From an uncultured Candidatus Bathyarchaeia archaeon (GTDB lineage: Archaea > Thermoproteota > Bathyarchaeia > TCS64): DNA of 37,268 bases. Positions 5,634-36,696 of the stretch are shown here, one piece after another; the stretch's first letter is position 1, and every line of letters begins with the position of its first letter. The notes beneath the pieces were generated by a model. It made no database searches. It was not told the DNA's origin and saw nothing but the letters and a program-made list of their open reading frames with translations. The stretch covers positions 1 through 37,268 of the forward strand of contig CAZEMD010000002.1 in the NCBI GenBank assembly GCA_964513225.1, given 5' to 3'. The translations under genes and the position numbers were made by a program.

Positions 5634-5809
5634 TCCCCAATTAAGCGGGGACATAATCGGGCGATGCGGAAAGGCGTGGCGGAGAGGTGGATGTACCTGA
5701 ATCAGGAGAGATTGCTGAAGTACATACCTAGATTTAGCCTCTCCGAGGTTGAAGGACTATCGCCATTGATAAAGTTATACAAAATGGTTCGCGCACCCGA
5801 GGTTCGCAT

Positions 5810-7144: not shown

Positions 7145-7284
7145 TGAAGATCAAAGGGTGAATCCGTTGCTAGGGGTAAAAAAGTATGCATGGCGTCGGG
7201 GTGCGCGCATGTTTCGCCACTTATCTCGCGCGCATATACTTTTCGGGGCGTTAAAGTGGGGAATCGTTGGGGGGGGGGTATGTT

Positions 7285-22413: not shown

Positions 22414-22416
22414 GTG

Positions 22417-23076: not shown

Positions 23077-23089
23077 CCATGATTCAGGT

Positions 23090-23146
23090 GTTCGGTCATA
23101 TTTATATATGTTCGGTTTTACCGAACGTATATATAGTACACCGAAC
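23090..23146. promoter_or_regulatory. 57-bp symmetric operator-like array: GTTCGGT-N13-GTTCGGT-TTT-ACCGAAC-N13-ACCGAAC
   Basis: Four 7-mers at 23090-96, 23110-16, 23120-26 and 23140-46. Both 13-nt spacers are TATA-like (CATATTTATATAT and GTATATATAGTAC). The array starts 14 nt upstream of the AbiEi-like GTG. Confidence 0.6.
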
Positions 23147-23414
23147 GTTAAAGGGGGCGCTCTTCATCCTATGGGGGTCTTACTTTCTACTGTATTACTT
23201 GACATTAACGCAGGTACATGTAAGTTCTAACGGGATAAATCATTTATGGACATGTAAATCTCTCAGTTCATATGATGACGAGGTTTCACGGGATGGTTTC
23301 TTAAGCATTAAGTTGGTTCCGATCGTTAAGGGGTAGGCTGGTGGGGCTTTGGGTTTAGCTGGTATCACCGGATTCAAGCTGTTTCGTTCAGGATGTGTGC
23401 CTAGCAACTGCCTT

Positions 23415-23810
23415 TCATCGGGTCGAGTTCGCGCGGTTCTTTCCGAGGGTTTCTCGGATGAAGCTGAGTATTGCCCTGGCTGCTTGGGTCGAGTCGTCCG
23501 GAATGTGGCTTTCCTTAACGTGGTCGTCTGATCCCGCGTGATAGTGCTTCGGGTAGGTTTTCACGTGGCTGTGTTTTGGGTGGGGGGCGTTGTCGTGCCT
23601 GTGTATCTCTCCTGTGACGTGTGTGCGCTCCCAGTGGTATGAATACTTGCCTGACGCTGAGAGCCAGACGTCCAAGTAGCTTCCGTCGACGATGTAGACC
23701 CTGAGCTTTGTGGGTGCGCCTGATGAGGTGCGGTGCGTCTGGGCGTCTTCAACTATGTCGGGGTACTCGTCGAGGATTGTGTCGGAGATGCTCTTGTAGA
23801 GGTCCTCCAA
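23415..23810 (-). CDS. DUF6516-like His-rich protein (family annotated in databases as putative TA toxin)
   Basis: TTG start. ...YSYHWERTHVTGEIHRHDNAPHPKHSHVKTYPKHYHAGSDDHVKES... matches my recollection of the ...RYDNAPHH...FPHHKH... core. Confidence 0.5.
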   Translation of the reverse strand: MEDLYKSISDTILDEYPDIVEDAQTHRTSSGAPTKLRVYIVDGSYLDVWLSASGKYSYHWERTHVTGEIHRHDNAPHPKHSHVKTYPKHYHAGSDDHVKESHIPDDSTQAARAILSFIRETLGKNRANSTR

Positions 23811-23823
23811 CGCCGTTTTCCGC

Positions 23824-24117
23824 CTAGGTGGGTATGTTGGCCAGTTCTTTCCGGATCTTCTCGGCGTGTTTTACGAGGTTCTCGTATTGTATGAGGTCCT
23901 CCCATGCGGGGTGCTCGTCTACCGCTCCTTTCTTTATTTGGTCCTCCAGCTCGCGTGGGCTTTTGACGCCGTACTTGGTTTCGAGATCGTGGATTTCTGC
24001 CTTGGCTGCCCTGAGTCTGGCTCTGAGGTACTCTTTGACGCCGCCTGTGACAAGTACCTCCGGTGGTACGCCCAGGGACTTGGAGACTCTGTCGATGAGC
24101 TGGTTGGTCTCGGTCAT
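23824..24117 (-). CDS. small helical partner protein (putative antitoxin)
   Basis: 97-aa ORF 13 nt upstream of the DUF6516-like gene. Charged helical sequence ...KYGVKSPRELEDQIKKGAVDEHPAWEDLIQYENL... Confidence 0.45.
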   Translation of the reverse strand: MTETNQLIDRVSKSLGVPPEVLVTGGVKEYLRARLRAAKAEIHDLETKYGVKSPRELEDQIKKGAVDEHPAWEDLIQYENLVKHAEKIRKELANIPT

Positions 24118-24240
24118 GTGTGTCGTTTATTTGTTCTCTTGGTGGCTTTATAACTTAACGGAGGCCGTGTTTTGTCGTGTTTGGATGCTGGGTTGGGGGC
24201 TGGTGTTAACTCTTTTACTCTACACCTCTAATTGTTCTGT

Positions 24241-24400
24241 ATGCGTGTGGCTCCGGTTGTTGGGACTCGGCCTCAGATAATCAAGTCTGCTCCCCTCATT
24301 AAGGAGGCTGGTAGGCGTGGTTTGGAGCTGGACGTGGTGCATACAGGACAGCACTACGATTATGAGCTGTCTAGGGTGTTCTTCAGTGAGCTTTGGCTGC
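24241..24400 (+). pseudogene. wecB: truncated UDP-GlcNAc 2-epimerase 5' fragment (copy 1)
   Basis: MRVAPVVGTRPQIIKSAPLIKEAGRRGLELDVVHTGQHYDYELSRVFFSEL... The reading frame then runs into unrelated DNA. Confidence 0.85.
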
Positions 24401-24409
24401 CTGAGCGGG

Positions 24410-24610
24410 CTATGGGCGCTGACCATCATCGTGGTCGTCGAGTATCGGCACTGAGCCGGCCTTCCTGACCTTTTCGTGGAGCTTTCTGTCGGCGGTTATG
24501 AGGCTTGAGGACGCGGCCTCGCCGACCTTCACGCAGGATCTCATGGCCTCGCCCTTGAGGCTCTTGTAGGCGTCGTCATCGGCGTCCTTTATGACGATGG
24601 TTGTGCTCAT
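24410..24610 (-). pseudogene. vapB-vapC deletion fusion remnant
   Basis: MSTTIVIKDADDDAYKSLKGEA... (VapB-like N-terminus) runs directly into ...SSSLITADRKLHEKVRKAGSVPIL (PIN C-terminal strand/helix). The whole PIN core is missing. Confidence 0.5.
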
Positions 24611-24690
24611 GTTCTCAAATGAGAAGGTGATTGGTGTGGAGGTAAATATTACGTTCAAAGGTTTTTAATTTTAGTCGCGCACGCTATTGA

Positions 24691-25575
24691 TTAACTCCCC
24701 TCTCTTATATCGGCTAATATTCTAGCTACAAGTTTCTTCTCCTTATGCGTTTTTGAGTCTCTGATAATTTTCGATAGGTCTTTATCCATGTCTCCTAGAA
24801 ACTTGTATCCGTCTATTACCTTTGAGATCACCTCTTCTTTTGAGGGCAAGCTTCCTCTGCGAACAAGGCTTCTGAGATCTTCCCAGTCATAGTCACCTTT
24901 TTCCACTTTATCAAAAAATAATTCTGGATCGAAGGGGTCTCTCGCATTCCAGCATTTTACTACTACTAATGCTTTTATGGTATCTCTATTGTAAGGTCGT
25001 CCAGTGAATAAGTATAGGTCATACAAGTCTCTACTCCTGGCTCTTTGAAAGGCTGCTCTAATTTTTTCAGATAAAACTTCATCCCTTTGCATACATTGCA
25101 CAGGAAATCTTTGGAACTCGCAATACTTGAAGTACATCTCACTTTGGAGAGGAAGTTCCGCTGTAGGAAAGACAGGTTGTTCTCGGAAGCTGACTTGGAG
25201 TTCAAAGACGGTTCCCGGATTCCAAGCGTGGGCGTATCTGACCACTGCTAGATAGGATTCCGGAGTCAGGTTCTCATCATCTATTGTGAAGTCTATGCCA
25301 TACCAGCTTTTCTCGTCTAAAAGGTCTTTGATCTTTGCGCTTAGTTCCTCAGGTCTTATGTCGATACTTGTAAAGTCAAGGTCCATTGAGAACCGCCCTG
25401 TGTTCCCGAAATATATCTTCTTTAGGCAGGTTCCGCCTTTAAAGGCTAGTCTTGGAAGCATTGGTTCGGACATGATGCGTAGGACGTAGGTTAGTACTAT
25501 GTCCCGCTCAGCCCTGTTCTCTGGTACCCTGCTTGAACGGGCGTAGAATGCTACATGTCTTCTTTCCAGCACCAT
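24691..25575 (-). CDS. abiEii: AbiEii/AbiGii family nucleotidyltransferase toxin
   Basis: ...LAFKGGTCLKKIYFGNTGRFSMDLDFTS... is the family signature. 294 aa, 3 nt downstream of its AbiEi partner. Confidence 0.85.
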   Translation of the reverse strand: MVLERRHVAFYARSSRVPENRAERDIVLTYVLRIMSEPMLPRLAFKGGTCLKKIYFGNTGRFSMDLDFTSIDIRPEELSAKIKDLLDEKSWYGIDFTIDDENLTPESYLAVVRYAHAWNPGTVFELQVSFREQPVFPTAELPLQSEMYFKYCEFQRFPVQCMQRDEVLSEKIRAAFQRARSRDLYDLYLFTGRPYNRDTIKALVVVKCWNARDPFDPELFFDKVEKGDYDWEDLRSLVRRGSLPSKEEVISKVIDGYKFLGDMDKDLSKIIRDSKTHKEKKLVARILADIREGS

Positions 25576-25578
25576 TGC

Positions 25579-26832
25579 TCACCTTATCTCGATCTCGCTC
25601 AGCAGCTGAGATCTAGGGACGTTGTTAATTACTCTCCACTTCTTGGTTAGTTTACCTGTCTTCGGCCTCTTGGAGTCTAAGTATATGACTGTCCCTCCCA
25701 CTTTGTCTAGCAACGTATTCTCTAGTTTAAGTGATAGCGGCTTCACGAGGTTTTCCTCAGCCAGAAAAGAGATGATGAAGCCCAATCTCTGGATGAGGGA
25801 GCGGGAGTTCATCTTTACAGCATATTTGACAAGCCTATCCTTATTAACTCGGGAAAGGCCCCTCCACGTAATCCCAGCTAGCTGCTCTACTCCACCGGCA
25901 TATCTCGGTTTATCAAACGAGTCCACTAATGATTTTTCTGGCTCGGCCATGTTCACGTTGGTATCGAAAATGGCTTCTTTCCTGTAACCGAAGAACTTGT
26001 TCTCAGACAGAGTTATGAATTTAAAATTGCTGCCAGACCACTCGAAATCTGGCTTCTTCTTGGTTGTCGCAATGAATAAGGTGTAGGGAATCTGCGTCGT
26101 GAATCCATAATGGCTGTTGGATGTGTAGTAGCTGAAATAGTATGGCTCGATTAGAGAGGCGCCTATGACGTAGGAATTTGTTGGTGGTATCCTGTTTGGA
26201 TAGCCATAGCTTAGGGGGATGAATTGGTATAGACCTTGGGTGACTCTCTCTATCCACTTCTTATCTTCGAGACTGTGAAGCAATAGATATGCATAATCCG
26301 GCGTACAATCCAAGGCCTCTTGAACGTCAGAAGGACGGATTATGGTTTTGTTTTCAGACTCCCATGTGGCAACTAGCCTAGCTTCGTTTGGCGAAAGATG
26401 CAGCGTTTCTCGCTGTCTCTGCAGCTCCGATTCTCTCAATTTTAAGCCATCTTTACTTGTTATCCCGATCTGCTCGAAGGTCAGCAGCTTCACCGGAATC
26501 CTTTCAAGCTCCTCTCTCACGGAGGCCTCTACTTCGGGGCCAATCACTGTCAGCTCGAACTTTTTCAATGTGGGTTCAATGTTGGAGATCGCGGTGAAGA
26601 TGTTGATTATCTGGTCGAGCATGGTGCGCCCTATCTTTTTTCCGGTAACTTCCACGAAAATATCGGTATCGTCGCTCTTCTTGAAGTGGAAGTCGACGGT
26701 GATTCGACCTGGCAGAACCTCGTTTACCGCCGTGAGAGTGTGTTCCCTATATATTCGGGGGATCTCACGAGACGCGTAAGCCTCTAAGGCACCTTCCATG
26801 CCATTCACCGGGATGGGGAAGGCATCACGCAT
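25579..26832 (-). CDS. abiEi: AbiEi-family antitoxin with about 140-aa N-terminal PD-(D/E)XK-like extension
   Basis: Start reassigned to ATG 26832 (MRDAFPIPV...), because 26833-27129 is the repeated wecB upstream region read antisense. The C-terminal about 270 aa (...LSPNEARLVATWESENKTIIRPSDVQEAL...YLLLHSLEDKKWIERVTQGLY...) is an AbiEi-type wHTH plus C-terminal domain. The N-terminus has ...RITVDFHFKKSDDTDIFVEVTGKK... Confidence 0.7.
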   Translation of the reverse strand: MRDAFPIPVNGMEGALEAYASREIPRIYREHTLTAVNEVLPGRITVDFHFKKSDDTDIFVEVTGKKIGRTMLDQIINIFTAISNIEPTLKKFELTVIGPEVEASVREELERIPVKLLTFEQIGITSKDGLKLRESELQRQRETLHLSPNEARLVATWESENKTIIRPSDVQEALDCTPDYAYLLLHSLEDKKWIERVTQGLYQFIPLSYGYPNRIPPTNSYVIGASLIEPYYFSYYTSNSHYGFTTQIPYTLFIATTKKKPDFEWSGSNFKFITLSENKFFGYRKEAIFDTNVNMAEPEKSLVDSFDKPRYAGGVEQLAGITWRGLSRVNKDRLVKYAVKMNSRSLIQRLGFIISFLAEENLVKPLSLKLENTLLDKVGGTVIYLDSKRPKTGKLTKKWRVINNVPRSQLLSEIEIR

Positions 26833-26915
26833 ATTATAAATTTTTCTCTTTTTCTTAGTGTTAGAATTTATTATACTAAGATTCTCGGAAATTTTTATAA
26901 TTAGTTTTGTCATTG

Positions 26916-26929
26916 ACGTCCATGGACGT
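26916..26929. promoter_or_regulatory. perfect 14-bp palindrome ACGTCCATGGACGT
   Basis: Read directly. It lies between the AT-rich AbiEi promoter region and the start of the repeat shared by copies 2 and 4. Confidence 0.3.
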
Positions 26930-26959
26930 TTCCTTTGGGCTAAGTGACGGAGGTTCAGG

Positions 26960-27127
26960 GACGGCTGGATGACTTGGGGGGGGGGCAGGGCTTCATCGGG
27001 GGCCTCTCGACGAGGTGTTGAACCTGGTTCAGCTGGGTGAAGGTGAGTGTGACGCCTGGTGAGGTTCACTTGCCTCTTTTCTGTGTGTGTTGGATACTCT
27101 TTTAGATTGCTAGGAGAATCTTTCAAC
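26960..27127 (+). repeat. about 168-bp wecB upstream repeat (pairs with 36981-37147)
   Basis: Aligns position-by-position with 36981-37147 with fewer than about 10 mismatches. G+T-rich on the + strand. Confidence 0.9.
27097..27108 (+). promoter_or_regulatory. TATA-like box (CTCTTTTAGATT) about 25 nt upstream of the wecB-fragment ATG
   Basis: The same box occurs at 37117-37128. Related CTCTTTTACTCT or CTCTTTAGG boxes sit upstream of copies 0, 1 and 3. The spacing fits a leaderless archaeal promoter. Confidence 0.35.
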
Positions 27128-27304
27128 ATGCGTGTGGCTCTGGTTGTTGGGACTCGGCCTCAGATCATCAAGTCTGCTCCCATCATTAAGGAGGCTGGTA
27201 GGCGTGGTTTGGAGCTGGACGTGGTGCACACGGGGCAGCACTACGATTATGAGATGTCGAGGGTGTTCTTCAACGAGCTTGGTTTTTATATGGTCTATAT
27301 GTGA
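27128..27304 (+). pseudogene. wecB: truncated UDP-GlcNAc 2-epimerase 5' fragment (copy 2)
   Basis: MRVALVVGTRPQIIKSAPIIKEAGRRGLELDVVHTGQHYDYEMSRVFFNELG, then unrelated FYMVYM*. Homology ends near 27287. Confidence 0.85.
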
Positions 27305-27448
27305 CTAGGGAGAGGACCGGGATCACAAGGTAAAGAGACTAGTAAGATGCGGGTGGAGCCGGAGAAGACCGTAGCTATAGACTAGAGCAAACATGTTCTG
27401 TTTTTAACGTACCTTATATTGTGGTTATTTAAGCGAGGTTCAACATTA

Positions 27449-28282
27449 TTATTTTTTGATGTGGATGTTTTCCTTGTAAAATAGGCAATGGTTTTTTATT
27501 GGACATATATCGCATTTTGGGTTCGAGCTACAGATCCCTAGACAGTTTTCTGTTTCTTTTACACAGCAAAAGAGCCATATAGCTAAATCTACTATTCCTG
27601 GGGCTTCAGATAGATCGATGTTCGATATCTTGAATCTCTTCAACTCTTCTCGTGCAAAGTTTGATAGGGTCTCATGGATGCCCTGGTATCCTTTTTCGGT
27701 TGTCATAGTGATGTCCACTTTCCTTGGTGCGTATCTGTGGAGCAGGCCTACTCTAACCATGAATCTTACCTCGTGTCTGTCTATGGGGGCTCTATTGAAG
27801 TATCCCAGGTCTCTGAGCAGGTTGTCCCTACCCTTGAAGCCAATTCCTTTTAAGTTTGTTAAATAAGGGTCTATCGATCCTTGTTCCGCGTATTCGTTTC
27901 TTTCATCGGCCCACTCTTTCAGCGTGTTGCTTTTTTCGAGTTGTTCTTTCAGTGCTTGGAAGGAACCAAGGATCGTGTTCTTGAAGCTTCCATCATTTAG
28001 CTTCGATTTTACTAGCGTTTCTAATGATCCGTCTTTCAACATTTGGAGGGTTACTGTTTCTAGCCCGAGCTTTTTCCAGTATATGGGTCTATAGTAGCTT
28101 CGGGTTACGATTATCTTGGCGATCGCGGTCAAGGCTTCTTCTGGGTAGCTTTCATGTTCTAGGGTTTCACGATTTTCTAAGAAAGTGTTGGTGTCTCTGG
28201 TAACGATCTCCTCTATGCTTTCAGATCCCTCTGATTCATGGTTTAGAAGCTGTTGGAACCAGTGAACGTCGCTTTTAGACAT
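27449..28282 (-). CDS. HhH-GPD superfamily (endonuclease III-like) DNA glycosylase-like protein with Fe-S cluster loop
   Basis: HhH motif ...LTNLKGIGFKGRDNLLRDLGY, then ...APIDRHEVRF (catalytic-Asp position). The C-terminal CSSNPKCDICPIKNHC (C-x5-C-x2-C-x5-C) resembles the EndoIII 4Fe-4S loop. AT-rich gene. Confidence 0.65.
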   Translation of the reverse strand: MSKSDVHWFQQLLNHESEGSESIEEIVTRDTNTFLENRETLEHESYPEEALTAIAKIIVTRSYYRPIYWKKLGLETVTLQMLKDGSLETLVKSKLNDGSFKNTILGSFQALKEQLEKSNTLKEWADERNEYAEQGSIDPYLTNLKGIGFKGRDNLLRDLGYFNRAPIDRHEVRFMVRVGLLHRYAPRKVDITMTTEKGYQGIHETLSNFAREELKRFKISNIDLSEAPGIVDLAIWLFCCVKETENCLGICSSNPKCDICPIKNHCLFYKENIHIKK

Positions 28283-28409
28283 TTAATCACAGGTATAGAT
28301 TAAAGATAGGTTTTAAGAAAGATTGTATGTTGTGGACCTCAACAGTTTCAATCGAATTAATTGAAGTCGTGTCTCCTTTTATCTGGAAGAAGTCTTTTAT
28401 CAACATTTA

Positions 28410-28706
28410 ATGACAAGTTCTATTGCCTTGAAGGCGTTGATCCTTGCTGGGGGTTTAGCTACTAGGTTGAGGCCTCTCAGCTTGACTAGGCCTAAGATTC
28501 TGTTCCCTTTGGCTAATGTGCCTCTCATCGATTACACGTTGAGGTGTCTAAGGGCGTGTGGCGTTGACACCGTCGTCATGGCTGTGAACAACCTCGCTGA
28601 CGTGATCATGGGTTATCTGGGTTGTGAGAGTTTTGGTTTGGAGGTTCTCTACTCTGTTGAGGGGGAGCCTCTTGGCAAGGTTTTGCCTATCACGGGTGGC
28701 GTGTGA
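28410..28706 (+). pseudogene. N-terminal fragment of a sugar-phosphate nucleotidyltransferase
   Basis: ...KALILAGGLATRLRPLSLTRPKILFPLANVPLIDYTL...VLYSVEGEPLG, then the frame ends. A full enzyme would be at least about 230 aa. Confidence 0.75.
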
Positions 28707-28736
28707 TGGGCGGGAATATTTCTTTGCGTGTTTGGG

Positions 28737-29159
28737 TTATGTCATCGCTATTAGCGTGTCTGTGTCGATTGTGTTTGTGCTCGCGGCGTTAGCTGCTTTT
28801 TGGAGTTGCCTATCCTCCGTCACCAGGGTGTATCCTTCCTGTTGCGCTGTTGTTAGATAGGCTGAGTCGTAGTATGTCAGATTGCATTGGAACGCGTTTT
28901 CCATTATGGCTATGTGTGTCTGCCTGTTCTGTGCCACGTATGTTTTCATGAGGGCGGTGAGGTCGTGGACTTGCTCTATGGATTCAAGTGCGGTTTTTCT
29001 GTCTGGTTTCTTTAGCAGTTTATTGATCTTCCATATGGCGTTGCCCAGCTCGTAGATTGTTAGATCTAGTAGGAGTTCGTCTTTGAGGTGCTCCACGGCT
29101 TCCGTGGGGTGGTTCTTGGTTAGCAACATTATGGCTGAGGCGTCGAATATTTTTCTCAT
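28737..29159 (-). CDS. vapC: VapC PIN-domain toxin
   Basis: IFDASAI..., ...YELGNA..., ...TYYDSAYL... and ...LVTEDRQL are the four PIN acidic positions. ATGA overlap with the upstream antitoxin. Confidence 0.85.
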   Translation of the reverse strand: MRKIFDASAIMLLTKNHPTEAVEHLKDELLLDLTIYELGNAIWKINKLLKKPDRKTALESIEQVHDLTALMKTYVAQNRQTHIAIMENAFQCNLTYYDSAYLTTAQQEGYTLVTEDRQLQKAANAASTNTIDTDTLIAMT

Positions 29160-29377
29160 CTCTGTTCCCGTGTCTCCCGGATGGTTTTTATTATCTCCTC
29201 GTCGGGTACCTCTCTGAGTAGTTTGCTTAGTTTTTTTGCTGCTTCTTGGGCTCGTTGTTCTTGGATCTTTTTTACTTCGGCTTCTAGGGCTTTTCGGGTT
29301 ACTTCGCTTATGTTTATCCCTGTCTCTTGGAGTTCTTTTTTTAGCTCGTCGGGTATTCGCACGGTTATGGATGCCAT
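29156..29377 (-). CDS. vapB: ribbon-helix-helix VapB-type antitoxin
   Basis: MASITVRIPDELKKELQETGINISEVTRKALEAEV... has an RHH beta-strand plus helices. Confidence 0.75.
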   Translation of the reverse strand: MASITVRIPDELKKELQETGINISEVTRKALEAEVKKIQEQRAQEAAKKLSKLLREVPDEEIIKTIRETREQR

Positions 29378-29575
29378 ACTATCATGTATTTACGTTTATT
29401 GTCTTACGTAAAAGGTTATGCTTTTTCTGTATTAATTCGTTCATCTTTATACCGGCTTCTGGGTGGCCTCTTAGAAAGGCGATGAGGGTACCTGAGTCTA
29501 GGCAGACCAATCCGGTGCCTCTAGGTTGCGTGTCTCGGTGCGTGCAACACACGAATATTAGAAATAGTATTTACT

Positions 29576-30109
29576 CTATGGAGACATCCCCAGTTCGTCG
29601 AGTATTCTGCGGTATACCGTTGAGCTTATTCTAAGCCCAGCCTTCACGAGATCGTCTATGATCTGGAGTGCTTCCCTTTTTGTGATCGAGTCTTGCCTGA
29701 AGGCTTGAACGATGGTGCCGCAGGTGCCTATGGGCTTGATGTTCAATATTCTTGACACCCTTCTGGCCTCTCTGTCGTCGGCGATGAAGTAGGCGGCGTC
29801 TAGCTGTTTACAGAGCTTGAGGGCCTCCTTCTCCCCGAGCCCCAGTCTGGTGTTGGTGTCTAGGAAGCTGTACTCGGCTTCTACCTCGGGCTCTACCCGC
29901 TCTTTGATGATCCAGGTTCCGACGGCTTTCTCTATGATGGAGGCGTCTGGTATGTTTAGCGCTTTTCCCTGTGTCACGGCTTCGTCGTAGACGGCCTCGG
30001 GGATGTGGATTTCTGGGAAGACTTCCCTGATGATATCTAGTCTGCCGATCTTGGCCAGGTAGATGAGGGGTGTGGAGTCTGAGACAGCCGCCTTGGATGG
30101 ACTAGTCAT
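29576..30109 (-). CDS. DUF3368/COG2405 PIN-like protein
   Basis: ...VSDSTPLIYLAKIGRLDIIREVF...GEKEALKLC...YFIADDREAR...PIGTCGTIVQAFRQDSIT...LVKAGLRIS. Confidence 0.8.
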   Translation of the reverse strand: MTSPSKAAVSDSTPLIYLAKIGRLDIIREVFPEIHIPEAVYDEAVTQGKALNIPDASIIEKAVGTWIIKERVEPEVEAEYSFLDTNTRLGLGEKEALKLCKQLDAAYFIADDREARRVSRILNIKPIGTCGTIVQAFRQDSITKREALQIIDDLVKAGLRISSTVYRRILDELGMSP

Positions 30110-30419
30110 TCCCGAATGCCTTCAAGTCCTCTTCCAGGTCCTCGACGTCGTACTGGGGCTGTATGTTTAGCTTTGCTAGTACGTCGATCATCTCCCAGAC
30201 CGTGAGCCCCGCGGTCTCAGCCGCCCTGGGAAGCGTGGCTCCGCCTTCGGCGTATGATTCTATGGCTTTCTGGAGCTTCCATTCCCGTATGTAGTGTTCC
30301 AGCGCCCTGTCGAGGACCGTTGACTTGTCCACCTTCTCCGCTCTCGCGATCTCCTCTATCTGGCTCACCCTTTCCTGGGGGAGCCGGGCTGACACGACCT
30401 CTTTGGCCAACACCATCAC
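30102..30419 (-). CDS. UPF0175 family antitoxin-like protein
   Basis: GTG-ATG start. ...AIESYAEGGATLPRAAETAGLTVWEMIDVLAKLNI... Overlaps its partner by 8 nt. Confidence 0.75.
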   Translation of the reverse strand: MMVLAKEVVSARLPQERVSQIEEIARAEKVDKSTVLDRALEHYIREWKLQKAIESYAEGGATLPRAAETAGLTVWEMIDVLAKLNIQPQYDVEDLEEDLKAFGND

Positions 30420-30595
30420 CTCGTATACGTTGTAATACGGAGTATACGTATTTAAACGGTTCCCCGTGACAGGCCCAAACTGTGGCGGAGGTCCCTCAGC
30501 TGGGCGCGGAGGGCATGAGGGTGTTGGGGTTTGAGTTCGTCCACTTTGGGTTGTTTAGCTGATGTTGTGAAGAGGGGTATGGAGCTAGAGCCTGT

Positions 30596-31090
30596 TTATT
30601 CGTTCAGGTTTGAGACCCTTTTTATTACATCATCACTTATGTAAAAACCAAGGTTTTTCAGGGTTTGCACCGTCTCGATAAACTCGTTCAATGAGTAGAG
30701 CTTGCGGTCGTACATCGTCCTGAGAACCTTCAACGTGCCACCTATTGGTATACCCATACTGGTTGCTTTCCTCCGGGCAAGACGATCATCTATGATTAAG
30801 GTGTCTGCTTTTTCCTCGATTGCCAACGTAATGGCTTCTGCTTCGCCCTTTCCAAGAGGATCTATTAACGCAGCGACCATTTTACGGTCTTTTGGCTCTT
30901 TAACCGTGACTTCGCCTCGGCTCTTTGCTTTCGCTAGTTCTCTGTCGCCTTTCAGCCCCTTACCTTTAACGCATATCTCTACGTAGACAGCCTTCGGGAT
31001 GATTATTTCCTGAAAAAGGTTCTTCAATAATCTAAGGTGTCCGGTTTTGCTTAATGCTATGATCACTGATGAGTCGAGGACCGCCTTCAA
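30596..31090 (-). CDS. DUF3368/COG2405 PIN-like protein
   Basis: ...VLDSSVIIALSKTGHLRLLKNLF...GEAEAITLAIEEK..LIIDDRLAR...PIGGTLKVLRTMY...LKNLGFYIS. Confidence 0.8.
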   Translation of the reverse strand: MKAVLDSSVIIALSKTGHLRLLKNLFQEIIIPKAVYVEICVKGKGLKGDRELAKAKSRGEVTVKEPKDRKMVAALIDPLGKGEAEAITLAIEEKADTLIIDDRLARRKATSMGIPIGGTLKVLRTMYDRKLYSLNEFIETVQTLKNLGFYISDDVIKRVSNLNE

Positions 31091-31305
31091 ACCTCGAGCT
31101 CCTGCCGGGCTTCCTCATCCGTGTAAATATAGGCTGGGATGTTTCTGTTCTTTAGCTCGATGAGGAACTCCTGGAGGGGCATCTCGGCGATCTCCGCGGC
31201 CCTGTTGAGGCTGATGATTTTCTTTTGGAAGACCTCTACTGCTGTCGCTAGTTTTACGTCGCGCTCGGATATTGATTCAGGTACCCGTATTTCTATGGTC
31301 TTCAA
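31087..31305 (-). CDS. UPF0175 family antitoxin-like protein
   Basis: ...AVEVFQKKIISLNRAAEIAEMPLQEFLIELKNRNIP... ATGA-type 4-nt overlap with its partner. Confidence 0.75.
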   Translation of the reverse strand: MKTIEIRVPESISERDVKLATAVEVFQKKIISLNRAAEIAEMPLQEFLIELKNRNIPAYIYTDEEARQELEV

Positions 31306-31818: not shown

Positions 31819-32085
31819 GCGTTTTTTTCCAGAGGGCCCTCCACGATTTTTTTAGTTAAAATATGCTGGTTTTATCATGATTCCGTTGAATTATACAAAA
31901 TAGCCAAGTGTATAATAAAGAGGAATGTTTCGGGAGATGTCTCCACTGGTGATGGGGATTCGAGTCATCAATAGGCTAGAGAGGAGAAGGTTCAGAAATA
32001 CAATTTTATTTATATGCTTATAAGAGATCATGACTTTTTATTTCATAATATTTTAAATCAAATAGATATAATTTGTTTTAGATCT

Positions 32086-33648
32086 ATGCCAAAATTTTGT
32101 CCGGAATGCGGTTCTCAAATAAAATTTGAAAATGCAAAGTTTTGTACTAATTGTGGATTTAATTTTCAAGATAATATCTCAACTGCATCTGAAAGTGATA
32201 CTAAAGTTAAACAAAATGTTTCGTTCAACATCTTTCAACTTGGAGAAAAAATGGAAGAGGCTATAGAACAAATATTTATCGCTAAAGGCTATAAAACAAA
32301 AAGAAGGCAAAGAATCAAAGGAAAATCGGGTACCATAAATGAAATAGATGTTTTAGCAATAAAAAATAGAAAAAAAATTGCTATTGAATGTAAAAACCAT
32401 TCAACACCAATCGGACAAAATCTAATCAGAGATTTTTATACAAAAATAAAAGAAATTAGAATACCTAATGGGTTTTTTGCTTCCAACTCTGATTTCACCA
32501 GTGGCGCGATCAAGTTCGCACAACAGAACAATATCACACTTTGGTCAAGAGAAGAAATAATAGAAGAATACTGGTTAGTTAATGTTGGGAGAACAAACGT
32601 AGGAAAAGAGCATAATCTAAAAAACGCATTACCTTTAAATATAGATTACGAAAAAGCAATTAAATTAAATTTAGAGAATTATGATAAAATAAAGATAAAT
32701 TCCTCAAATTTATTTTATAAACCATATTACGTAGTTGAATATGTGTTTAAAGATAAATATCATGATCCTACGAGAGAGATCCATACATTTTATGATGAAG
32801 GATTAGTACTTATAGATGGATTAGATGGAAGGATATTGAATAAAACAGATACCATGGGTAGATTAAAACAAATAATTAGTAACTCAGATGAGGAAGTAGA
32901 TACGAAAGTATATGATGAATTATTAAATTATAATAAAGTTGAGAATTATAGAATAAACTCTGATTTTTTTAATGTTAATGTCATGGAACCTCAGGTTCAA
33001 AATAGATTCATAAAAAAATTAGCTACAGATTATATAACAGAGAAAAACACAAAAGAAATAAATTATATACCTAAATCATCAGAAACAATTTTTGATGGAA
33101 AAAGTGTCACCTATAAACCTAAAAGTAAAAATATTATGCTGAAAAAAGTAAATTTTCTGTACGTTCCAAAATGGAAGATCGAGTTCCAATCTATCGATAA
33201 TTATTATACAAGGGAAATTTATGGCCATACAGGAACTAAAATTGAAGATACAATAGAGTACTGTCCTTATCACTTTCAGCTTGGTGGTTTGAGGTTAGTA
33301 ACGAAAGCTACTCACGCCGTGTGTGAAGTTTGTGGTCAGGCTCTGTGTAACGAACATATCACCCAATGTCCCCTTTGTGGAAAATGGTTGTGCATGGAAT
33401 GTGGAGTCAAGTGCAGTAATTGTAATCGAATATATTGCGTGGAACATATAAATAATCTATGTTCAATAAGCCAAAAAGAGATTTGTGATGAATGTACTTC
33501 TATCTGTCCAATTTGTGGCAATATGTACAGCAATAAGTTTGAGGTTGAGTGTTCTGAATGTGGCTCCATAGTATGTAAAAACTGCTCGCAGTCAAAAGGA
33601 ATGATAAGAAGAAAACAATTCTGTATTAATTGTTTATCAGATTTATGA
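32086..33648 (+). CDS. Zn-ribbon / Mrr-type restriction endonuclease domain / unknown middle domain / C-terminal multi-CxxC protein
   Basis: Start set at MPKFCPECGSQIKFENAKFCTNCG (zinc ribbon). The segment ...MEEAIEQIFIAKGYKTKRRQRIKGKSGTINEIDVLAIKNRKKIAIECKNHSTPIGQNLIRDFY...NGFFASNSDFTSGAIKFAQQNNITLW is Mrr_cat-like (D...E-x-K). The last about 115 aa hold at least 8 CxxC pairs. About one-third G+C by eye. Confidence 0.7.
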   Translation: MPKFCPECGSQIKFENAKFCTNCGFNFQDNISTASESDTKVKQNVSFNIFQLGEKMEEAIEQIFIAKGYKTKRRQRIKGKSGTINEIDVLAIKNRKKIAIECKNHSTPIGQNLIRDFYTKIKEIRIPNGFFASNSDFTSGAIKFAQQNNITLWSREEIIEEYWLVNVGRTNVGKEHNLKNALPLNIDYEKAIKLNLENYDKIKINSSNLFYKPYYVVEYVFKDKYHDPTREIHTFYDEGLVLIDGLDGRILNKTDTMGRLKQIISNSDEEVDTKVYDELLNYNKVENYRINSDFFNVNVMEPQVQNRFIKKLATDYITEKNTKEINYIPKSSETIFDGKSVTYKPKSKNIMLKKVNFLYVPKWKIEFQSIDNYYTREIYGHTGTKIEDTIEYCPYHFQLGGLRLVTKATHAVCEVCGQALCNEHITQCPLCGKWLCMECGVKCSNCNRIYCVEHINNLCSISQKEICDECTSICPICGNMYSNKFEVECSECGSIVCKNCSQSKGMIRRKQFCINCLSDL

Positions 33649-33961: not shown

Positions 33962-34771
33962 TTAGTTTATCCATTCTTTCATTGAAGCAGTTCTTCGTTC
34001 CTGTTCTTTGGTTCTAGAAGCGATCATTTTTCTGCCTTCTTCTGGGTCGTTGAGTATCTCTTTGAGTCGGCCGTAGTCTCTTGCGATTGCGTTTCCTGCC
34101 ACCCATGCTCCGGCGTTGAAGTCTAGTGGTGAGCAATCTGCTTGTCTGCATAACTCTATTATATCGTGTTTTTTGGCTTTGTATTTGTTACCTAATATTA
34201 TCTTGAGTGCTTGTTCCACCCACGTGTCTATTGGCTGGAAGTGGGGGTGATAGTGTCTGTCGGTTTCGAGGTGACGGTAGGCTATGTCTCGTAGGTAGAG
34301 GCAGGTTATTTTGTCTCCTACGCCTCGGATCGAGTTTATGAACTTGTAGGCGGCTGGAACTTGGTTTGATGATAATAGGTCTTGGGCGTATGTGTAGAGG
34401 TTGACTGCTTTTTCCTGTGATAGTCTTCGTAGGACCCCTTTGTCTGATTTCATAGGGTTGTGGGTTTCGTTTAGTTTTGGTTCATGATACTTATCTTTGG
34501 CTATATCTTTGTATGTTTTCCATGCTTTTTCTGCATCTTTTTTGGTTATTCTGGTTATCTCGTCTTTGAACGTTTGGTTTATGGCCAGATTTGCTAGGGT
34601 TCTGTATGATTGGGCTGCTCCTTGTCTTTCATATGCGTAGTTATGTAGAAAGTTTAGCAGGGCTTGTTTCGGTGTTTCGGGTGGGTCTTCTAGCCATCCG
34701 TTCCAGAAGATGGTTGAATAGCTCGCTGTGTTGTTGGCTAGGTCGATTTGACTTTGTTTGAATTTCTTCAT
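33962..34771 (-). CDS. divergent HhH-GPD glycosylase-like protein (no Fe-S loop)
   Basis: ...AAYKFINSIRGVGDKITCLYLRDIAY...HFQPIDTWVEQAL has the HhH hairpin with Lys plus a downstream Asp at EndoIII-like spacing. The N-terminal about 130 aa are unrecognised. Confidence 0.5.
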   Translation of the reverse strand: MKKFKQSQIDLANNTASYSTIFWNGWLEDPPETPKQALLNFLHNYAYERQGAAQSYRTLANLAINQTFKDEITRITKKDAEKAWKTYKDIAKDKYHEPKLNETHNPMKSDKGVLRRLSQEKAVNLYTYAQDLLSSNQVPAAYKFINSIRGVGDKITCLYLRDIAYRHLETDRHYHPHFQPIDTWVEQALKIILGNKYKAKKHDIIELCRQADCSPLDFNAGAWVAGNAIARDYGRLKEILNDPEEGRKMIASRTKEQERRTASMKEWIN

Positions 34772-35326: not shown

Positions 35327-35735
35327 GGACTAGGTGAAGCAGCTTTCTGGTGGTTATGGTGGGGGTGAGTTGTGCTTTGAGCAGCTCCTTGTCCCCCGTC
35401 ACCAGGTAGTCGGACCCTGAGTCTATGGCTCCGAGGGCGACCGGGATGTCCTTGCGGTCGTTGAGGGTGTGGAGGTTGGAGAGGATCTCCTCGTCGGGTG
35501 GGTCCTCCGTCACCGTCATGCAGGCGTGGAGGTACTTGATCAGGCCCTCGATCTCCTCCGGCGTCAGGTTGAACTCGGGTCTCCTGAGGACGGCTGAAGC
35601 CTCCGAAAGGACGTAGTGGTTGGTCTGGAGCCTGACTGCGCCTACCCGGCCCAGCTCCAGGAGGGTGGCCTCGTTGCCCTCGAAGAGGAGGCCGCTTGCG
35701 ATGGTGTTAGCGTCGAGGAAGGCGCGTAGCGGTTT
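35292..35735 (-). CDS. PIN-domain toxin (TIGR00305-like), start codon unclear
   Basis: The frame reads ...RKPLRAFLDANTIASGLLFEGNEATLLELGRVGAVRLQTNHYVLSEASAVL...DIPVALGAIDSGSDYLVTGDKELL. The ORF track lists only the last 75 aa, because there is no ATG/GTG/TTG between the upstream TAA and ATG 35519. Confidence 0.6.
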   Translation of the reverse strand, partial: KPLRAFLDANTIASGLLFEGNEATLLELGRVGAVRLQTNHYVLSEASAVLRRPEFNLTPEEIEGLIKYLHACMTVTEDPPDEEILSNLHTLNDRKDIPVALGAIDSGSDYLVTGDKELLKAQLTPTITTRKLLHLVLKNDTDNGQHP

Positions 35736-36015
35736 TCTCCCAGGCAGCCTCGGATTCCTCCTCGACGATCTCCTGGAGGCGTCGGCGGGTTATGCCGGTC
35801 TTCTTCACCTTCTCCCTGATGAGGGCGAGGAGGCGCTTCTCGCCCTGGAACTTCTTGATGAGGTAGGTGTCGCCTATCTTCTCTATGACCACGTAGTCGT
35901 CTTGGGTGAGGCCGAGTTCCTCTCTGACCTCTTTGGGTAGGGTTATCTGGCCTACGGAGGTGACCTTGCTTATGTATGTCTCGGCCATGTGGTTCGCCGT
36001 TATCGGCTGGGACAT
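35707..36015 (-). CDS. AbrB/SpoVT-type antitoxin
   Basis: ...VTSVGQITLPKEVREELGLTQDDYVVIEKIGDTYLIKK... is a swapped-hairpin AbrB motif. Alternative start at 35988. Confidence 0.75.
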   Translation of the reverse strand: MSQPITANHMAETYISKVTSVGQITLPKEVREELGLTQDDYVVIEKIGDTYLIKKFQGEKRLLALIREKVKKTGITRRRLQEIVEEESEAAWEKTATRLPRR

Positions 36016-36249
36016 TGGGTTATTTAAGAATTTCTTAGATGGCGTGTTGGCTGGCTTTGTTCACGGTTTGTGGACGTATTGTTTATGGGCCGTGAACAGC
36101 GCTGGGTGGTGGTTGTTTGTGGTTGTGAGTGCGTGTGGGGGGATCCAATGTCGTCATCGAGGTTCAACGTTTCCCGGGGTTGTTTGCTGATCGGAGGTCT
36201 TCCCGGGCTCCTTTGGGCTGCCTGTAGTCTTCGCCGTGGAAGCCCTTTT

Positions 36250-36696
36250 TCACATTGATCTCAGGTCGAATACGGTTAAACCGAGTTCTTCCTGGTTTTG
36301 AATTATGTATTTGTCGCTTGTGATCAATGGCAGGCTGTGTATCTTCGCTGTTGCGACGTGGTACGCATCGAAGTAGTGAAGTTTCCGAGGGCCTCGATGT
36401 CGTTGATAGAGCATCAACGCGTTGTATGTGATGGCGGGAGTCAAGGGCAGGGGCGTGTGTGTTATGGAGGCTATTGAGATGATGACCTGCGCCGCTTCCA
36501 TAATAGATAGTCCTTTGGATCTCAGGGCCGTGGTTATGTCTTCGTAGAGCATGCTCGAGACGTAGGCTTGGGTCCTGCCTTCGAGGATCTGGTTTACTAC
36601 TTTCTCCGAGTGGGCGATGAGGTTGTCGGCTTTGATGTAGGAGATGAAGACGTCGGAGTCGATTAGGCGTCTATTGTCGGTCTCGTTTGAGGACAT
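36250..36696 (-). CDS. vapC: VapC PIN-domain toxin
   Basis: ...LIDSDVFISY..., ...YEDITTAL..., ...HYFDAYHVATA... and ...LITSDKYI give the PIN acidic-residue pattern. Confidence 0.8.
   Translation of the reverse strand: MSSNETDNRRLIDSDVFISYIKADNLIAHSEKVVNQILEGRTQAYVSSMLYEDITTALRSKGLSIMEAAQVIISIASITHTPLPLTPAITYNALMLYQRHRGPRKLHYFDAYHVATAKIHSLPLITSDKYIIQNQEELGLTVFDLRSM

What the first reader, a model, noticed from the sequence alone, without database searches (positions are those of the whole stretch)
32086..33648. AT-rich Zn-ribbon / Mrr-nuclease / unknown / poly-CxxC protein: candidate single-gene defence effector
The architecture has four parts. First, an N-terminal zinc ribbon (CPECG...CTNCG). 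Second, an Mrr_cat-type PD-(D/E)XK domain (EIDVLAI...IAIECKNH...FFASNSDFTSGAIKFA). Third, an unrecognised beta-rich region of about 220 aa (...LFYKPYYVVEYVF...LYVPKWKIEFQS...). Fourth, a about 115-aa tail with at least 8 CxxC pairs (CEVCG..CPLCG..CMECG..CSNC..CDEC..CPICG..CSECG..CKNC..CINC). The gene is far more AT-rich than its surroundings, which suggests recent foreign origin. I cannot place the middle and C-terminal parts in a known family.
Basis: partly seen in the sequence, partly recalled or inferred. Interest (0 to 1): 0.7.

Follow-up and report, generated by a model that had tools for sequence, protein, structure and literature searches.

The report
Solo archaeal Mrr nuclease, uncharacterised module
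This is a real, conserved archaeal gene for a DNA-cutting enzyme of the Mrr restriction type, fused to a domain with no recognisable relatives and a rod of about seven zinc fingers; it always occurs without a partner gene and is probably a stand-alone anti-virus or anti-plasmid nuclease, but nobody has tested it.

Summary
ORF 32014-33648 (+), with a probable start at 32086 (520 aa), encodes four parts. They are a 4-Cys zinc ribbon; an Mrr_cat PD-(D/E)xK nuclease (Pfam E 1.5e-16; D88/E101/K103 invariant in 79 homologues); a ~225-aa alpha+beta domain with no Pfam, NCBIfam, PADLOC or PDB match despite a confident AlphaFold model (pLDDT 92); and a ~125-aa array of CxxC-x4-CxxH units (about 24 conserved ligands, 6-7 Zn). 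GC is 27-30% against 46-56% in the flanks.

Full-length homologues (about 63 clusters) carry only archaeal names (Bathyarchaeia, Methanomicrobiales, Methanomassiliicoccales, Thermoplasmatota). No partner gene recurs in 15 neighbourhoods. About nine of these contain toxin-antitoxin, R-M, integrase or other defence-type genes; six look like housekeeping.

The middle-plus-zinc module is mobile. It also occurs without any enzyme domain (once directly upstream of a Type I R-M operon), fused to HerA/FtsK-like ATPases, and fused to PAS sensors.

Best reading (confidence 0.4): a solitary, restriction-like or abortive defence DNase whose C-terminal module supplies target recognition or activation. A housekeeping repair nuclease is not excluded. 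It is a new variant of a known kind and has not been characterised experimentally.

The parts
32052..32059 (+). TATA-box-like TTTTAAAT, 27-34 nt upstream of ATG 32086. Putative archaeal promoter element; this would imply a leaderless or short-leader mRNA.
   Evidence: Read directly from the sequence. The stretch from here to the ATG is conserved in L013/L014. Inference only; the sigma-70 promoter scan does not apply to archaea.
32086..33648 (+). Coding sequence: 520 aa plus stop (TGA at 33646-33648). The in-frame upstream ATG at 32014 is probably not used.
   Evidence: all homologues start at the MPKFCPxCG position.
32092..32160 (+). N-terminal 4-Cys zinc ribbon (CPECG...CTNCG, aa 3-25).
   Evidence: Pfam Zn_Ribbon_1/DZR hits are sub-threshold. 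C5, C8, C20 and C23 are invariant in A1. The ribbon is absent in some distant relatives (P0075, P0076).
32161..32229 (+). Variable, low-confidence linker (aa 26-48).
   Evidence: pLDDT is below 50 for aa 33-45. Its length varies between homologues, with acidic DDDWS...DPIDWSEEEY inserts in Methanomicrobiales.
32230..32580 (+). Mrr_cat PD-(D/E)xK nuclease domain (aa 49-165). Catalytic E86-I-D88 ... E101-C-K103-N104, plus E57.
   Evidence: Pfam PF04471, E 1.5e-16. G53, E57, E86, D88, E101, C102, K103 and N104 are invariant in 79 sequences. Foldseek matches AF1548 (1y88, 1.6e-6), VC1899, Can2/Cdn1, MspJI, AspBHI and EcoT38I.
32581..33261 (+). Uncharacterised alpha+beta middle domain (aa 166-392). 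It has two long beta-hairpins carrying related motifs (NLFYKPYYVVEYVF and NFLYVPKWKIEFQS) and a helical/small-sheet insert.
   Evidence: AF2 pLDDT 92, pTM 0.82. Best PDB Foldseek E is 0.35, and that hit is on the zinc tail. No Pfam, NCBIfam, PADLOC or PHROGs hit. Invariant in A1: G168, R169, N198, L209, P213, P228, N321, P345, P361, W363, Y374, G383; Y214, Y219, D227 and D237 are conserved in at least 90%. Comparing the two halves by hhalign gives E 0.0025, probability 12%.
33262..33645 (+). Zinc-finger array (aa 393-520): CPYH, then about six 15-aa units of CxxC-x4-CxxH/C, then a terminal CINC. Predicted 6-7 Zn sites.
   Evidence: Invariant Cys/His listed. Weak FYVE/rabphilin-type similarity: PDB profile E 0.0055; Foldseek 2yw8, TMt 0.63 over 52 aa, E 0.35. 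The unit number varies from 1 to more than 20 among relatives.

Best explanation
The gene encodes a stand-alone archaeal DNase that works in genetic conflict (defence against viruses or plasmids).

Shown:
- It has an intact Mrr-type PD-(D/E)xK catalytic domain under strong purifying selection.
- It has no conserved partner gene and no cognate methyltransferase.
- It sits at different chromosomal positions in different archaea, usually as a low-GC insert.

Inferred:
- The Mrr domain cuts DNA in a Mg2+-dependent way.
- Self/non-self discrimination cannot come from a partner methylase. It must therefore come from the protein's own non-catalytic parts: the uncharacterised double-hairpin domain and the zinc-finger rod, possibly helped by the N-terminal zinc ribbon.
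- I think it most likely that this module binds the target directly (foreign DNA carrying a modification or unusual structure, i.e. Type IV-like restriction) and positions or licenses the nuclease.
- The closely related alternative, that the module senses an infection-derived protein or ligand and unleashes non-specific cleavage, is listed as a rival.

The module behaves as a portable targeting or regulatory cassette. The same cassette occurs without any enzyme domain, fused to HerA/FtsK-type DNA-pumping ATPases, and fused to PAS sensor domains.
For: Nuclease:
- Mrr_cat E 1.5e-16.
- E57, E86, D88, E101 and K103 are invariant in 79 homologues down to 22% identity.
- Foldseek matches to PD-ExK nucleases include the modification-dependent MspJI and AspBHI and the CRISPR ancillary nuclease Can2.

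Solitary gene:
- No recurring neighbour in 15 contexts.

Conflict-type contexts:
- The window lies in a TA-dense stretch: two AbiEi/AbiEii-type pairs (one AbiEii hit sub-threshold), two UPF0175/PIN-DUF3368 pairs, and further PIN genes.
- MNT/HepT or HEPN pairs in L001, L006 and L008.
- An integrase next to the gene in L005 and L007; L005 is a 35%-GC island with SMODS and Rep genes in a 60%-GC genome.
- A D12 methylase plus DUF6996/6997 in L006; an N6_N4 methylase in L018; a second Mrr_cat gene in L007; a HARE-HTH gene abutting it in L003.

GC below the host flanks:
- Window 27-30% vs 46-56%; L001 46-50% vs 61-68%; L015 34% vs 48-51%.

Portable module:
- 657 hits to the middle+zinc profile. Architectures include ZnR-module only, HerA-module, HTH-PAS-Mrr_cat-module-TM, and zinc arrays alone.
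- A nuclease-less member lies 69 nt upstream of, and co-oriented with, a complete hsdM-hsdS-hsdR operon.

Patchy distribution:
- Every homologue that carries a source name, and all 17 loci from a scan of 185,579 species genomes, are archaeal.
Against: - No experiment exists, and no known defence family covers the protein. PADLOC hits are nuclease-domain fragments only.
- Six of 15 contexts (five bathyarchaeal loci and L009) are ordinary housekeeping neighbourhoods.
- TA genes are so common in archaeal genomes that finding them nearby is weak evidence, and no enrichment statistic was computed.
- DNA-repair-type genes lie nearby in several loci: FEN1 in L020, AP_endonuc_2 in L001, a RadA-like ATPase in L008, and an Ogg-HhH glycosylase about 4 kb upstream in the window.
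- HerA fusions would also fit DNA-end processing.
- Nothing shows that the middle domain binds DNA. It has no detectable similarity to any known modified-base reader (SRA, EVE, YTH, winged helix).
- No member was found in IMG/VR, the phage collection or the plasmid collection. The only plasmid hit was to a zinc array alone.
Confidence: 0.4

Rival explanations
1. Sensor-activated abortive-infection nuclease. The middle domain and zinc-finger rod bind a viral protein or small ligand rather than DNA. Binding relieves autoinhibition or drives oligomerisation of the Mrr domain, which then degrades DNA indiscriminately. This is the logic of Shedu, of Avs-type sensors carrying nuclease effector domains, and of Can2.
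For: - The portable module is combined with alternative effectors (none, Mrr_cat, HerA) and with PAS sensors. This is typical of sensor/effector shuffling in immune proteins.
- Cross-braced zinc-finger arrays of the FYVE, B-box and RBR types are mostly protein-interaction modules (established knowledge).
- The full-length AF2 model has pTM 0.80, which suggests a fixed inter-domain packing that could occlude the active site. I could not inspect the coordinates.
Against: - No NTPase or oligomerisation domain is present.
- No ligand-binding fold was recognised.
- The variable number of zinc units (1 to more than 20) argues against one specific binding surface.
- No toxicity or activation data exist.
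Confidence: 0.2
2. Housekeeping or stress-related DNA repair/recombination nuclease of certain archaea. The module would recruit it to DNA ends, stalled forks or a partner ATPase.
For: - Housekeeping contexts in Bathyarchaeia.
- FEN1 immediately downstream in L020; AP_endonuc_2 downstream in L001/L002; a RadA-like ATPase near the gene in L008.
- The same module is fused to HerA-type ATPases, and HerA works with NurA in archaeal end resection (established knowledge).
- The weak Hjc Pfam hit (E 0.11) is expected for any PD-ExK domain and carries little weight.
Against: - Distribution is very patchy: about 63 full-length 90% clusters in 5.8 billion proteins, and 17 loci in 185,579 species genomes by a pattern-limited scan.
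- There is no conserved synteny.
- The gene is repeatedly lower in GC than its host and is integrase-linked in two genomes.
- Repair genes are normally vertically inherited and match their host in composition.
Confidence: 0.15
3. Selfish solitary nuclease gene, acting as a homing-like or addiction element. It promotes its own maintenance or spread rather than protecting the host.
For: - A solo low-GC gene inserted between unrelated housekeeping genes at different sites in related genomes.
- Presence on integrase-bearing islands.
Against: - No inteins, introns, flanking repeats or target-site duplications were found. The only flanking direct repeat is a 21-nt pair at 71% identity, which is probably chance.
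- No tRNA is nearby.
- No antitoxin-like partner is present.
- The gene is stable at the same locus in related strains.
Confidence: 0.1
4. The nuclease fold is catalytically dead and serves only as a DNA-binding or scaffold domain, like the NA-iREase1 domains of NACHT proteins.
For: A sub-threshold Pfam hit to NA-iREase1 (E 0.0014, 19 bits against a cut-off of 27).
Against: The full catalytic set E57, D88, E101-x-K103 is invariant in 79 sequences. The Mrr_cat score is far higher, at 61 bits.
Confidence: 0.03

Closest known systems
Mrr-family Type IV restriction endonucleases (E. coli Mrr; Pfam Mrr_cat PF04471)
   Same: Same catalytic domain family with an intact D...ExK motif. Solitary gene with no cognate methyltransferase.
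   Different: In Mrr the nuclease is C-terminal, behind an Mrr_N winged-helix reader. Here it is N-terminal, behind a zinc ribbon, and is followed by an unrelated 225-aa domain and a zinc-finger array. Modification dependence has not been tested.
AF1548 (PDB 1y88), archaeal Mrr-like protein of unknown function
   Same: Best structural match to the nuclease domain (Foldseek E 1.6e-6, 24% identity). Also archaeal.
   Different: AF1548 is only 184 aa long. It lacks the zinc ribbon, the middle domain and the Cys array.
MspJI/AspBHI-type modification-dependent enzymes
   Same: Single polypeptide with a reader domain plus a PD-ExK nuclease. The nuclease domains match structurally.
   Different: Those enzymes use an N-terminal SRA-like reader. 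No SRA, EVE or YTH similarity was detected here.
Shedu (SduA) single-protein immune nucleases
   Same: Same operating logic: one protein, a PD-(D/E)xK core, and diverse appended sensor domains (paper 10.1101/2023.08.10.552793, listed).
   Different: The Shedu core is DUF4263, not Mrr_cat, and there was no PADLOC Shedu hit. Shedu is mainly bacterial. The order of sensor and nuclease is reversed.
CARF/SAVED-PD-ExK effectors (Can2, Card1, Cdn1)
   Same: The Mrr-like nuclease domain matches in structure and by PADLOC CARF_PDDEXK fragments. Both show sensor-plus-nuclease logic.
   Different: There is no CARF or SAVED domain, and no CRISPR or CBASS genes are linked as a rule. SMODS appears once, in L005.
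FYVE / rabphilin / B-box / RBR-type cross-braced zinc fingers
   Same: The Cys tail has the spacing and predicted fold of interleaved Zn-binding pairs.
   Different: Similarity is marginal. The FYVE lipid-binding signature (RRHHCR) is absent from the sequence. Here the units are reiterated as a rod of variable length.

Membership tests
PD-(D/E)xK / Mrr_cat (PF04471) | Profile match above the curated cut-off | tested here: met
   61 bits against a cut-off of 21, E 1.5e-16, aa 54-160.
PD-(D/E)xK / Mrr_cat (PF04471) | Catalytic acidic residue(s) plus (D/E)xK | tested here: met
   E57, E86, D88, E101 and K103 are invariant in 79 sequences.
PD-(D/E)xK / Mrr_cat (PF04471) | Restriction-endonuclease-like alpha/beta core fold | tested here: met
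   AF2 pLDDT above 90 over aa 50-165. Foldseek matches 1y88, 1xmx, Can2, MspJI and EcoT38I.
Mrr-type Type IV restriction enzyme | N-terminal Mrr_N winged-helix DNA reader | tested here: not met
   No Mrr_N or winged-helix hit. The N-terminus is a zinc ribbon.
Mrr-type Type IV restriction enzyme | Cleavage dependent on modified DNA | not testable with these tools
   Needs biochemistry.
Type I/II/III restriction-modification system | Cognate DNA methyltransferase encoded adjacent and conserved | tested here: not met
   A methyltransferase is nearby in only 2 of 15 neighbourhoods (L006, L018) and is absent from the window.
McrBC-like Type IV system | McrB-type GTPase/AAA+ partner gene | tested here: not met
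   No such gene was found in any neighbourhood examined.
Known defence systems in PADLOC-DB v2 | Full-length match to a system component | tested here: not met
   Only nuclease-domain fragments matched: the ZorD C-terminus (4.7e-8), PDC-S02, CARF_PDDEXK, and mREase_IV (0.0057).
FYVE zinc finger | Eight Zn ligands in a cross-brace, plus the basic RRHHCR phosphoinositide-binding motif | tested here: not met
   The ligand spacing is weakly similar (E 0.0055; TMt 0.63), but no RRHHCR motif occurs in aa 393-520 (read).
PepSY-like domain (a lead from memory for the two halves of the middle domain) | Profile or structural match to PepSY | tested here: not met
   No PepSY hit in Pfam at E<=1. Foldseek PDB and PDB profile searches of each half found nothing.
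Defence-island gene | Statistically enriched next to known defence genes | tested here: inconclusive
   About 9 of 15 contexts have TA, R-M, integrase, HEPN or SMODS genes and 6 of 15 do not. No background statistic was possible.

The most novel reading that the evidence does not exclude
The ~225-aa double-hairpin domain together with the reiterated CxxC-x4-CxxH zinc units is a previously undescribed, so far archaea-only, portable recognition cassette. It plugs into different DNA-acting machines: the Mrr nuclease, HerA/FtsK pumps, and possibly Type I R-M and SNF2 operons. The Mrr-fused form would define a new family of single-protein archaeal immune nucleases with its own mode of non-self recognition.
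Probability: 0.3. Interest if true: 0.7.

Novelty: new variant of a known kind. Interest (0 to 1): 0.55.

Why it matters
Archaeal antiviral immunity is far less charted than bacterial immunity, and most known systems were carried over from bacteria. This family appears to be confined to archaea. It has a well-understood effector (an Mrr-type DNase) attached to a confidently folded domain that matches nothing in Pfam or the PDB, and that same domain is reused with HerA ATPases.

If the module proves to be a recognition device, it would add a new sensing principle and a compact one-gene system that is easy to test. It might also yield a new DNA-modification-dependent or structure-dependent nuclease as a tool.

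If instead it is a repair factor, it would point to an unrecognised nuclease/HerA pathway in Bathyarchaeia and methanogens.

Tried and rejected
- Pfam, NCBIfam, PADLOC and PHROGs searches on the whole protein and on variants gave nothing beyond Mrr_cat and weak zinc ribbons.
- Foldseek of the full model against the PDB returned only nuclease hits.
- Foldseek of the C-terminal 355 aa gave nothing below E 0.35 in the PDB. In BFVD it gave only low-TM matches to Cys-rich viral proteins.
- PDB sequence-profile searches of the module and of each half gave only marginal FYVE hits on the Cys tail.
- Internal duplication of the middle domain: hhalign aligns the two hairpin motifs in register, but at only 12% probability. 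I keep this as a hint, not a finding.
- The PepSY-like idea came from memory of the motif and found no support.
- Conserved-partner hypothesis: the unannotated 200-295-aa neighbours of the window and six other loci were aligned and are unrelated, apart from one pair in two related Methanomicrobiales genomes.
- The window's 269-aa neighbour belongs to a small family of 17 hypothetical proteins. It shows only a weak HhH-like motif.
- Insertion scars: no convincing flanking repeats and no tRNA.
- The first genome-contig scan, with exact peptides from the window protein, found nothing. Alignments A1 and A4 were too divergent for the pattern tool.
- The IMG/VR, phage and plasmid collections hold no true family member.
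- Literature searches found no paper describing this architecture. The CoCoNuT paper was checked and is not relevant.
- The Python machine was lost. As a result I could not inspect the model coordinates, Zn-site geometry or electrostatics, and could not compute neighbourhood statistics.
Full report
1. OBSERVATION

The window holds one long ORF at 32014..33648 on the + strand. All full-length homologues begin there, and a TATA-like TTTTAAAT lies at 32052-32059, 27-34 nt upstream. The product is 520 aa.

GC is 27.2% for 32001-33000 and 30.2% for 32501-33500, against 46-56% in the flanks. A 544-codon open frame in DNA this AT-rich cannot be a chance event, and conservation confirms that it is a gene.

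2. ANATOMY

- aa 3-25: a zinc ribbon. The Pfam hits are sub-threshold, but its four Cys are invariant in 27 full-length homologues.
- aa 26-48: a variable, low-confidence linker.
- aa 49-165: Mrr_cat (PF04471, E 1.5e-16, 61 bits against a cut-off of 21). E57, E86, D88, E101 and K103 are invariant across 79 sequences down to about 22% identity, so the nuclease is almost certainly active.
- aa 166-392: an alpha+beta domain. It has two long beta-hairpins, each carrying a related motif (NLFYKPYYVVEYVF and NFLYVPKWKIEFQS), and a helical insert.
- aa 393-520: CPYH, followed by about six 15-residue CxxC-x4-CxxH/C units and a terminal CINC. Twenty Cys and 2 His are invariant, and C436 and H454 are at least 90% conserved. 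That is enough for 6-7 Zn.

In the window's own sub-clade, two consensus ligand positions are substituted (S462 and F485).

3. STRUCTURE AND FAMILY SEARCHES

AlphaFold2 with a 79-sequence alignment gave pLDDT 90 and pTM 0.80 for the whole protein. For aa 166-520 alone it gave pLDDT 92 and pTM 0.82.

Foldseek of the whole model against the PDB returned only PD-ExK nucleases: AF1548/1y88 at 1.6e-6, VC1899, Can2/Cdn1, MspJI, AspBHI, EcoT38I, Bax1 and the R2 RLE domain.

The C-terminal model matched nothing below E 0.35. The only geometrically sensible hits were FYVE/rabphilin zinc fingers over about 52 residues of the tail. A PDB profile search agreed, with FYVE at E 0.0055. BFVD gave only low-TM matches to Cys-rich viral proteins.

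Pfam, NCBIfam, PADLOC and PHROGs have no model for aa 166-520. PADLOC hits are confined to the nuclease domain (ZorD C-terminus, PDC-S02, CARF_PDDEXK, mREase_IV).

A profile-profile comparison of the two halves of the middle domain aligns the hairpin motifs in register, but weakly (E 0.0025, probability 12%). The resemblance to PepSY domains that I recalled was not supported by any search.

4. FAMILY AND DISTRIBUTION

The word-indexed search found 80 relatives. About 63 cover 90% or more of the query (most 97-100%), down to 33% identity. Every hit that carries a source name is archaeal: Methanofollis sp. W23, Methanoculleus taiwanensis, Methanoregula, Methanomicrobiales, Bathyarchaeia, Methanomassiliicoccales. 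They are annotated only as 'restriction endonuclease' or 'hypothetical protein'.

A scan of one genome per GTDB species found 17 loci, all archaeal. Nine are Bathyarchaeia/Bathyarchaeota; the best, L016, is 65% identical. The rest are Thermoplasmatota, Methanoculleus, Methanoregulaceae, Methanocellales and others. The scan is pattern-limited, so this count is a lower bound.

No true member was found in IMG/VR, the GenBank phage collection or PLSDB plasmids.

5. THE C-TERMINAL MODULE IS PORTABLE

An exhaustive HMMER search with a profile of aa 166-520 gave 657 hits at E<=1e-3 and 91 at E<=1e-30. Besides the present architecture, the hits include the following:
- (a) ZnR-middle-one zinc unit with no enzyme domain, 308-368 aa (P0115, P0118, P0125, P0143, P0177, P0195, P0211).
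- (b) ZnR-Mrr_cat-middle with only one or two zinc units (P0064-P0080).
- (c) HerA/FtsK-like ATPase (DUF87, HerA_C) followed by the full middle domain and zinc units (P0191, P0224).
- (d) HerA-coiled coil-last hairpin-long zinc arrays (P0134, P0148, P0222). P0160 shares the coiled coil-hairpin-zinc array layout but has no Pfam domain hit, HerA included.
- (e) HTH_IclR-PAS x3-Mrr_cat-middle-zinc-TM (P0205), and a member truncated at its N-terminus that retains the end of Mrr_cat, then middle, zinc units and TM segments (P0157).
- (f) Proteins made largely of zinc units, with up to 12 matched stretches (P0170).

None of these has a Pfam model for the middle domain.

One nuclease-less member lies 69 nt upstream of, and co-oriented with, a complete hsdM-hsdS-hsdR Type I R-M operon (L036). 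HerA-fusion contexts showed no nuclease partner.

6. NEIGHBOURHOODS OF THE MRR-FUSED FORM

In the window, the gene sits at the end of a TA-dense stretch:
- AbiEi_2 with a sub-threshold AbiEii-like ORF at 21.6-23.1 kb.
- AbiEii with a sub-threshold AbiEi_4 ORF at 24.7-27.1 kb.
- An Ogg-HhH/FeS glycosylase at 27.5-28.3 kb.
- A PIN gene at 28.7-29.2 kb.
- Two UPF0175/PIN-DUF3368 pairs at 29.6-31.3 kb.
- A further PIN gene at 36.3-36.7 kb.

In other genomes:
- MNT/HepT upstream and AP_endonuc_2 downstream (Methanofollis, L001/L002).
- A HARE-HTH gene abutting the stop codon, plus a large TPR protein (Methanoculleus, L003/L004).
- An integrase upstream and Mob_CxxC, SMODS and Rep genes downstream, in a 35%-GC island within a 60%-GC genome (Methanomassiliicoccales, L005).
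- A D12 methylase, DUF6996/6997/DUF7226 and an MNT/HEPN pair (L006).
- An integrase and a second Mrr_cat gene (L007).
- MNT/HepT (L008).
- An AAA_15/AAA_21 ATPase and genes of unknown function (L015).
- HEPN_Swt1 (L016) and an N6_N4 methylase (L018).
- Purely housekeeping surroundings in L009, L019, L020 (TBP | gene | FEN1), L021 (L15e, RNase P) and L029 (ELP3 | gene | GatD/GatE).

No family recurs next to the gene. The unannotated 200-295-aa neighbours from the window and six other loci are unrelated, apart from the pair from two related Methanomicrobiales genomes, L001 and L008.

The gene is also lower in GC than its host in L001 (46-50% vs 61-68%), L005 and L015 (34% vs 48-51%).

Two metagenome contigs with 95%-identical proteins share the window's upstream junction from about 31718. 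Downstream they differ by an indel that includes an 85-aa ORF. The gene is therefore stably resident in this lineage. I found no flanking repeats or tRNA that would mark an insertion.

7. INTERPRETATION

Shown:
- An intact Mrr-type nuclease.
- A confidently folded but unclassifiable domain, and a variable zinc-finger array that together form a cassette reused with other DNA-acting enzymes.
- A solitary, patchily distributed, compositionally deviant gene known only from archaea.

Inferred:
- With no methylase or other partner, discrimination must be intrinsic. I consider a restriction-like (Type IV-like) or abortive defence nuclease the most likely function (0.4 for direct target recognition, plus 0.2 for the sensor-activated variant).
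- A repair or recombination role (0.15) is kept alive by the housekeeping contexts, the nearby repair genes and the HerA fusions.
- A purely selfish element (0.1) and an inactive scaffold (0.03) are less likely.

8. COMPARISON AND NOVELTY

The protein is a member of the Mrr_cat/PD-(D/E)xK family. It is not a canonical Mrr (no Mrr_N). It is not part of a Type I-III or McrBC system, and it is not Shedu, Zorya, or any PADLOC-listed system.

It works most like single-polypeptide reader-nuclease enzymes (Mrr, MspJI) or sensor-nuclease immune proteins (Shedu, Can2).

I found no paper describing the architecture or the module. The sequences already sit in databases under generic names. I rate it a new variant of a known kind, with interest 0.55.

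9. LIMITS

- There is no experimental evidence.
- AlphaFold DB was not searchable.
- The scripting machine was lost. I could not inspect the model's coordinates, Zn geometry or surface charge, or compute neighbourhood enrichment.

Noticed in passing
window 21616-31305 and 35707-36696: A dense run of toxin-antitoxin genes: AbiEi_2 with a sub-threshold AbiEii-like ORF (21616-23076); AbiEii with a sub-threshold AbiEi_4 ORF (24691-27129); a PIN gene (28737-29159); two UPF0175 + PIN-DUF3368 pairs (29576-31305); and a further PIN gene (36250-36696) beside a small unannotated ORF at 35707-36015. The left part of the window (3.9-20 kb) is ordinary metabolism: peptidases and sugar-nucleotide enzymes.
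   Followed up: partly
window 33962-34771 (-): The 269-aa neighbour has lowish GC (41-42%) and no Pfam or PDB hit. It belongs to a tiny family of 17 hypothetical proteins. It carries a weak helix-hairpin-helix-like motif (FINSIRGVGDKITCLYLRDIAY ... PIDTW) that aligns with the HhH motif of the Ogg-type glycosylase at 27449-28282 (E 0.04). It is present near the gene in related strain L014 but not next to other family members.
   Followed up: partly
window 27449-28282 (-): An Ogg-HhH / EndoIII FeS-type DNA glycosylase is embedded in the TA-rich stretch. This is an unusual place for a repair glycosylase. A base-excision restriction role is conceivable but was not tested.
   Followed up: no
P0191, P0224, P0134, P0148, P0222 (loci L010-L012): HerA/FtsK-like ATPases carry the same middle domain and/or zinc array at their C-terminus, some through a long coiled coil. 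They are solitary genes with no nuclease partner in the three contexts seen.
   Followed up: partly
L036 58-6909: A nuclease-less ZnR-middle-one-zinc-unit protein (313 aa) lies directly upstream of, and co-oriented with, a complete Type I R-M operon (hsdM, hsdS, hsdR). This is a single example.
   Followed up: partly
L037 (Haloferax lucentense plasmid pSVX82-3, NZ_CP104744.1) 1972-8401: A 1245-aa ORF (locus 3714-7451) is absent from the PLSDB gene table. It consists of a coiled-coil N-terminal part and dozens of CxxC/CxxH units. It sits between an SNF2-related gene and a gene annotated 'restriction endonuclease', whose ExK position looks degenerate (VGIRT). The overlapping start and stop codons suggest an operon.
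   Followed up: partly
window 33460-33545 (aa 459-487): In the window protein and its closest relatives (P0003, P0005, P0007, P0036), the consensus ligand Cys at position 462 is replaced (Ser in the window). The consensus His at 485 is also replaced in the window and in P0003 and P0007 (Phe in the window), but is retained in P0005 and P0036. One or two zinc sites may therefore be degenerate in this sub-clade.
   Followed up: no
L013 ~340-375 vs window ~31990: One related contig (L013) has a 34-nt tandem duplication (…GGTTCGAGTAATCAATACTAGAGAG…) in the upstream intergenic region. L013 and L014 both have an extra ~0.9-kb segment with an 85-aa ORF downstream of the gene that the window lacks.
   Followed up: no
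P0022, P0029, P0032, P0042 (Methanomicrobiales homologues), linker region: The linker between the zinc ribbon and the nuclease carries a conserved acidic/aromatic insert (DDDWS…DPIDWSEEEY) that is absent from the window protein. It could be a docking or autoinhibitory peptide.
   Followed up: no
P0160 (1274 aa): A large protein with the last hairpin and a long zinc array also shows a very weak EVE-like (modified-base reader) match at aa 272-346 (E 0.043, well below the cut-off).
   Followed up: no
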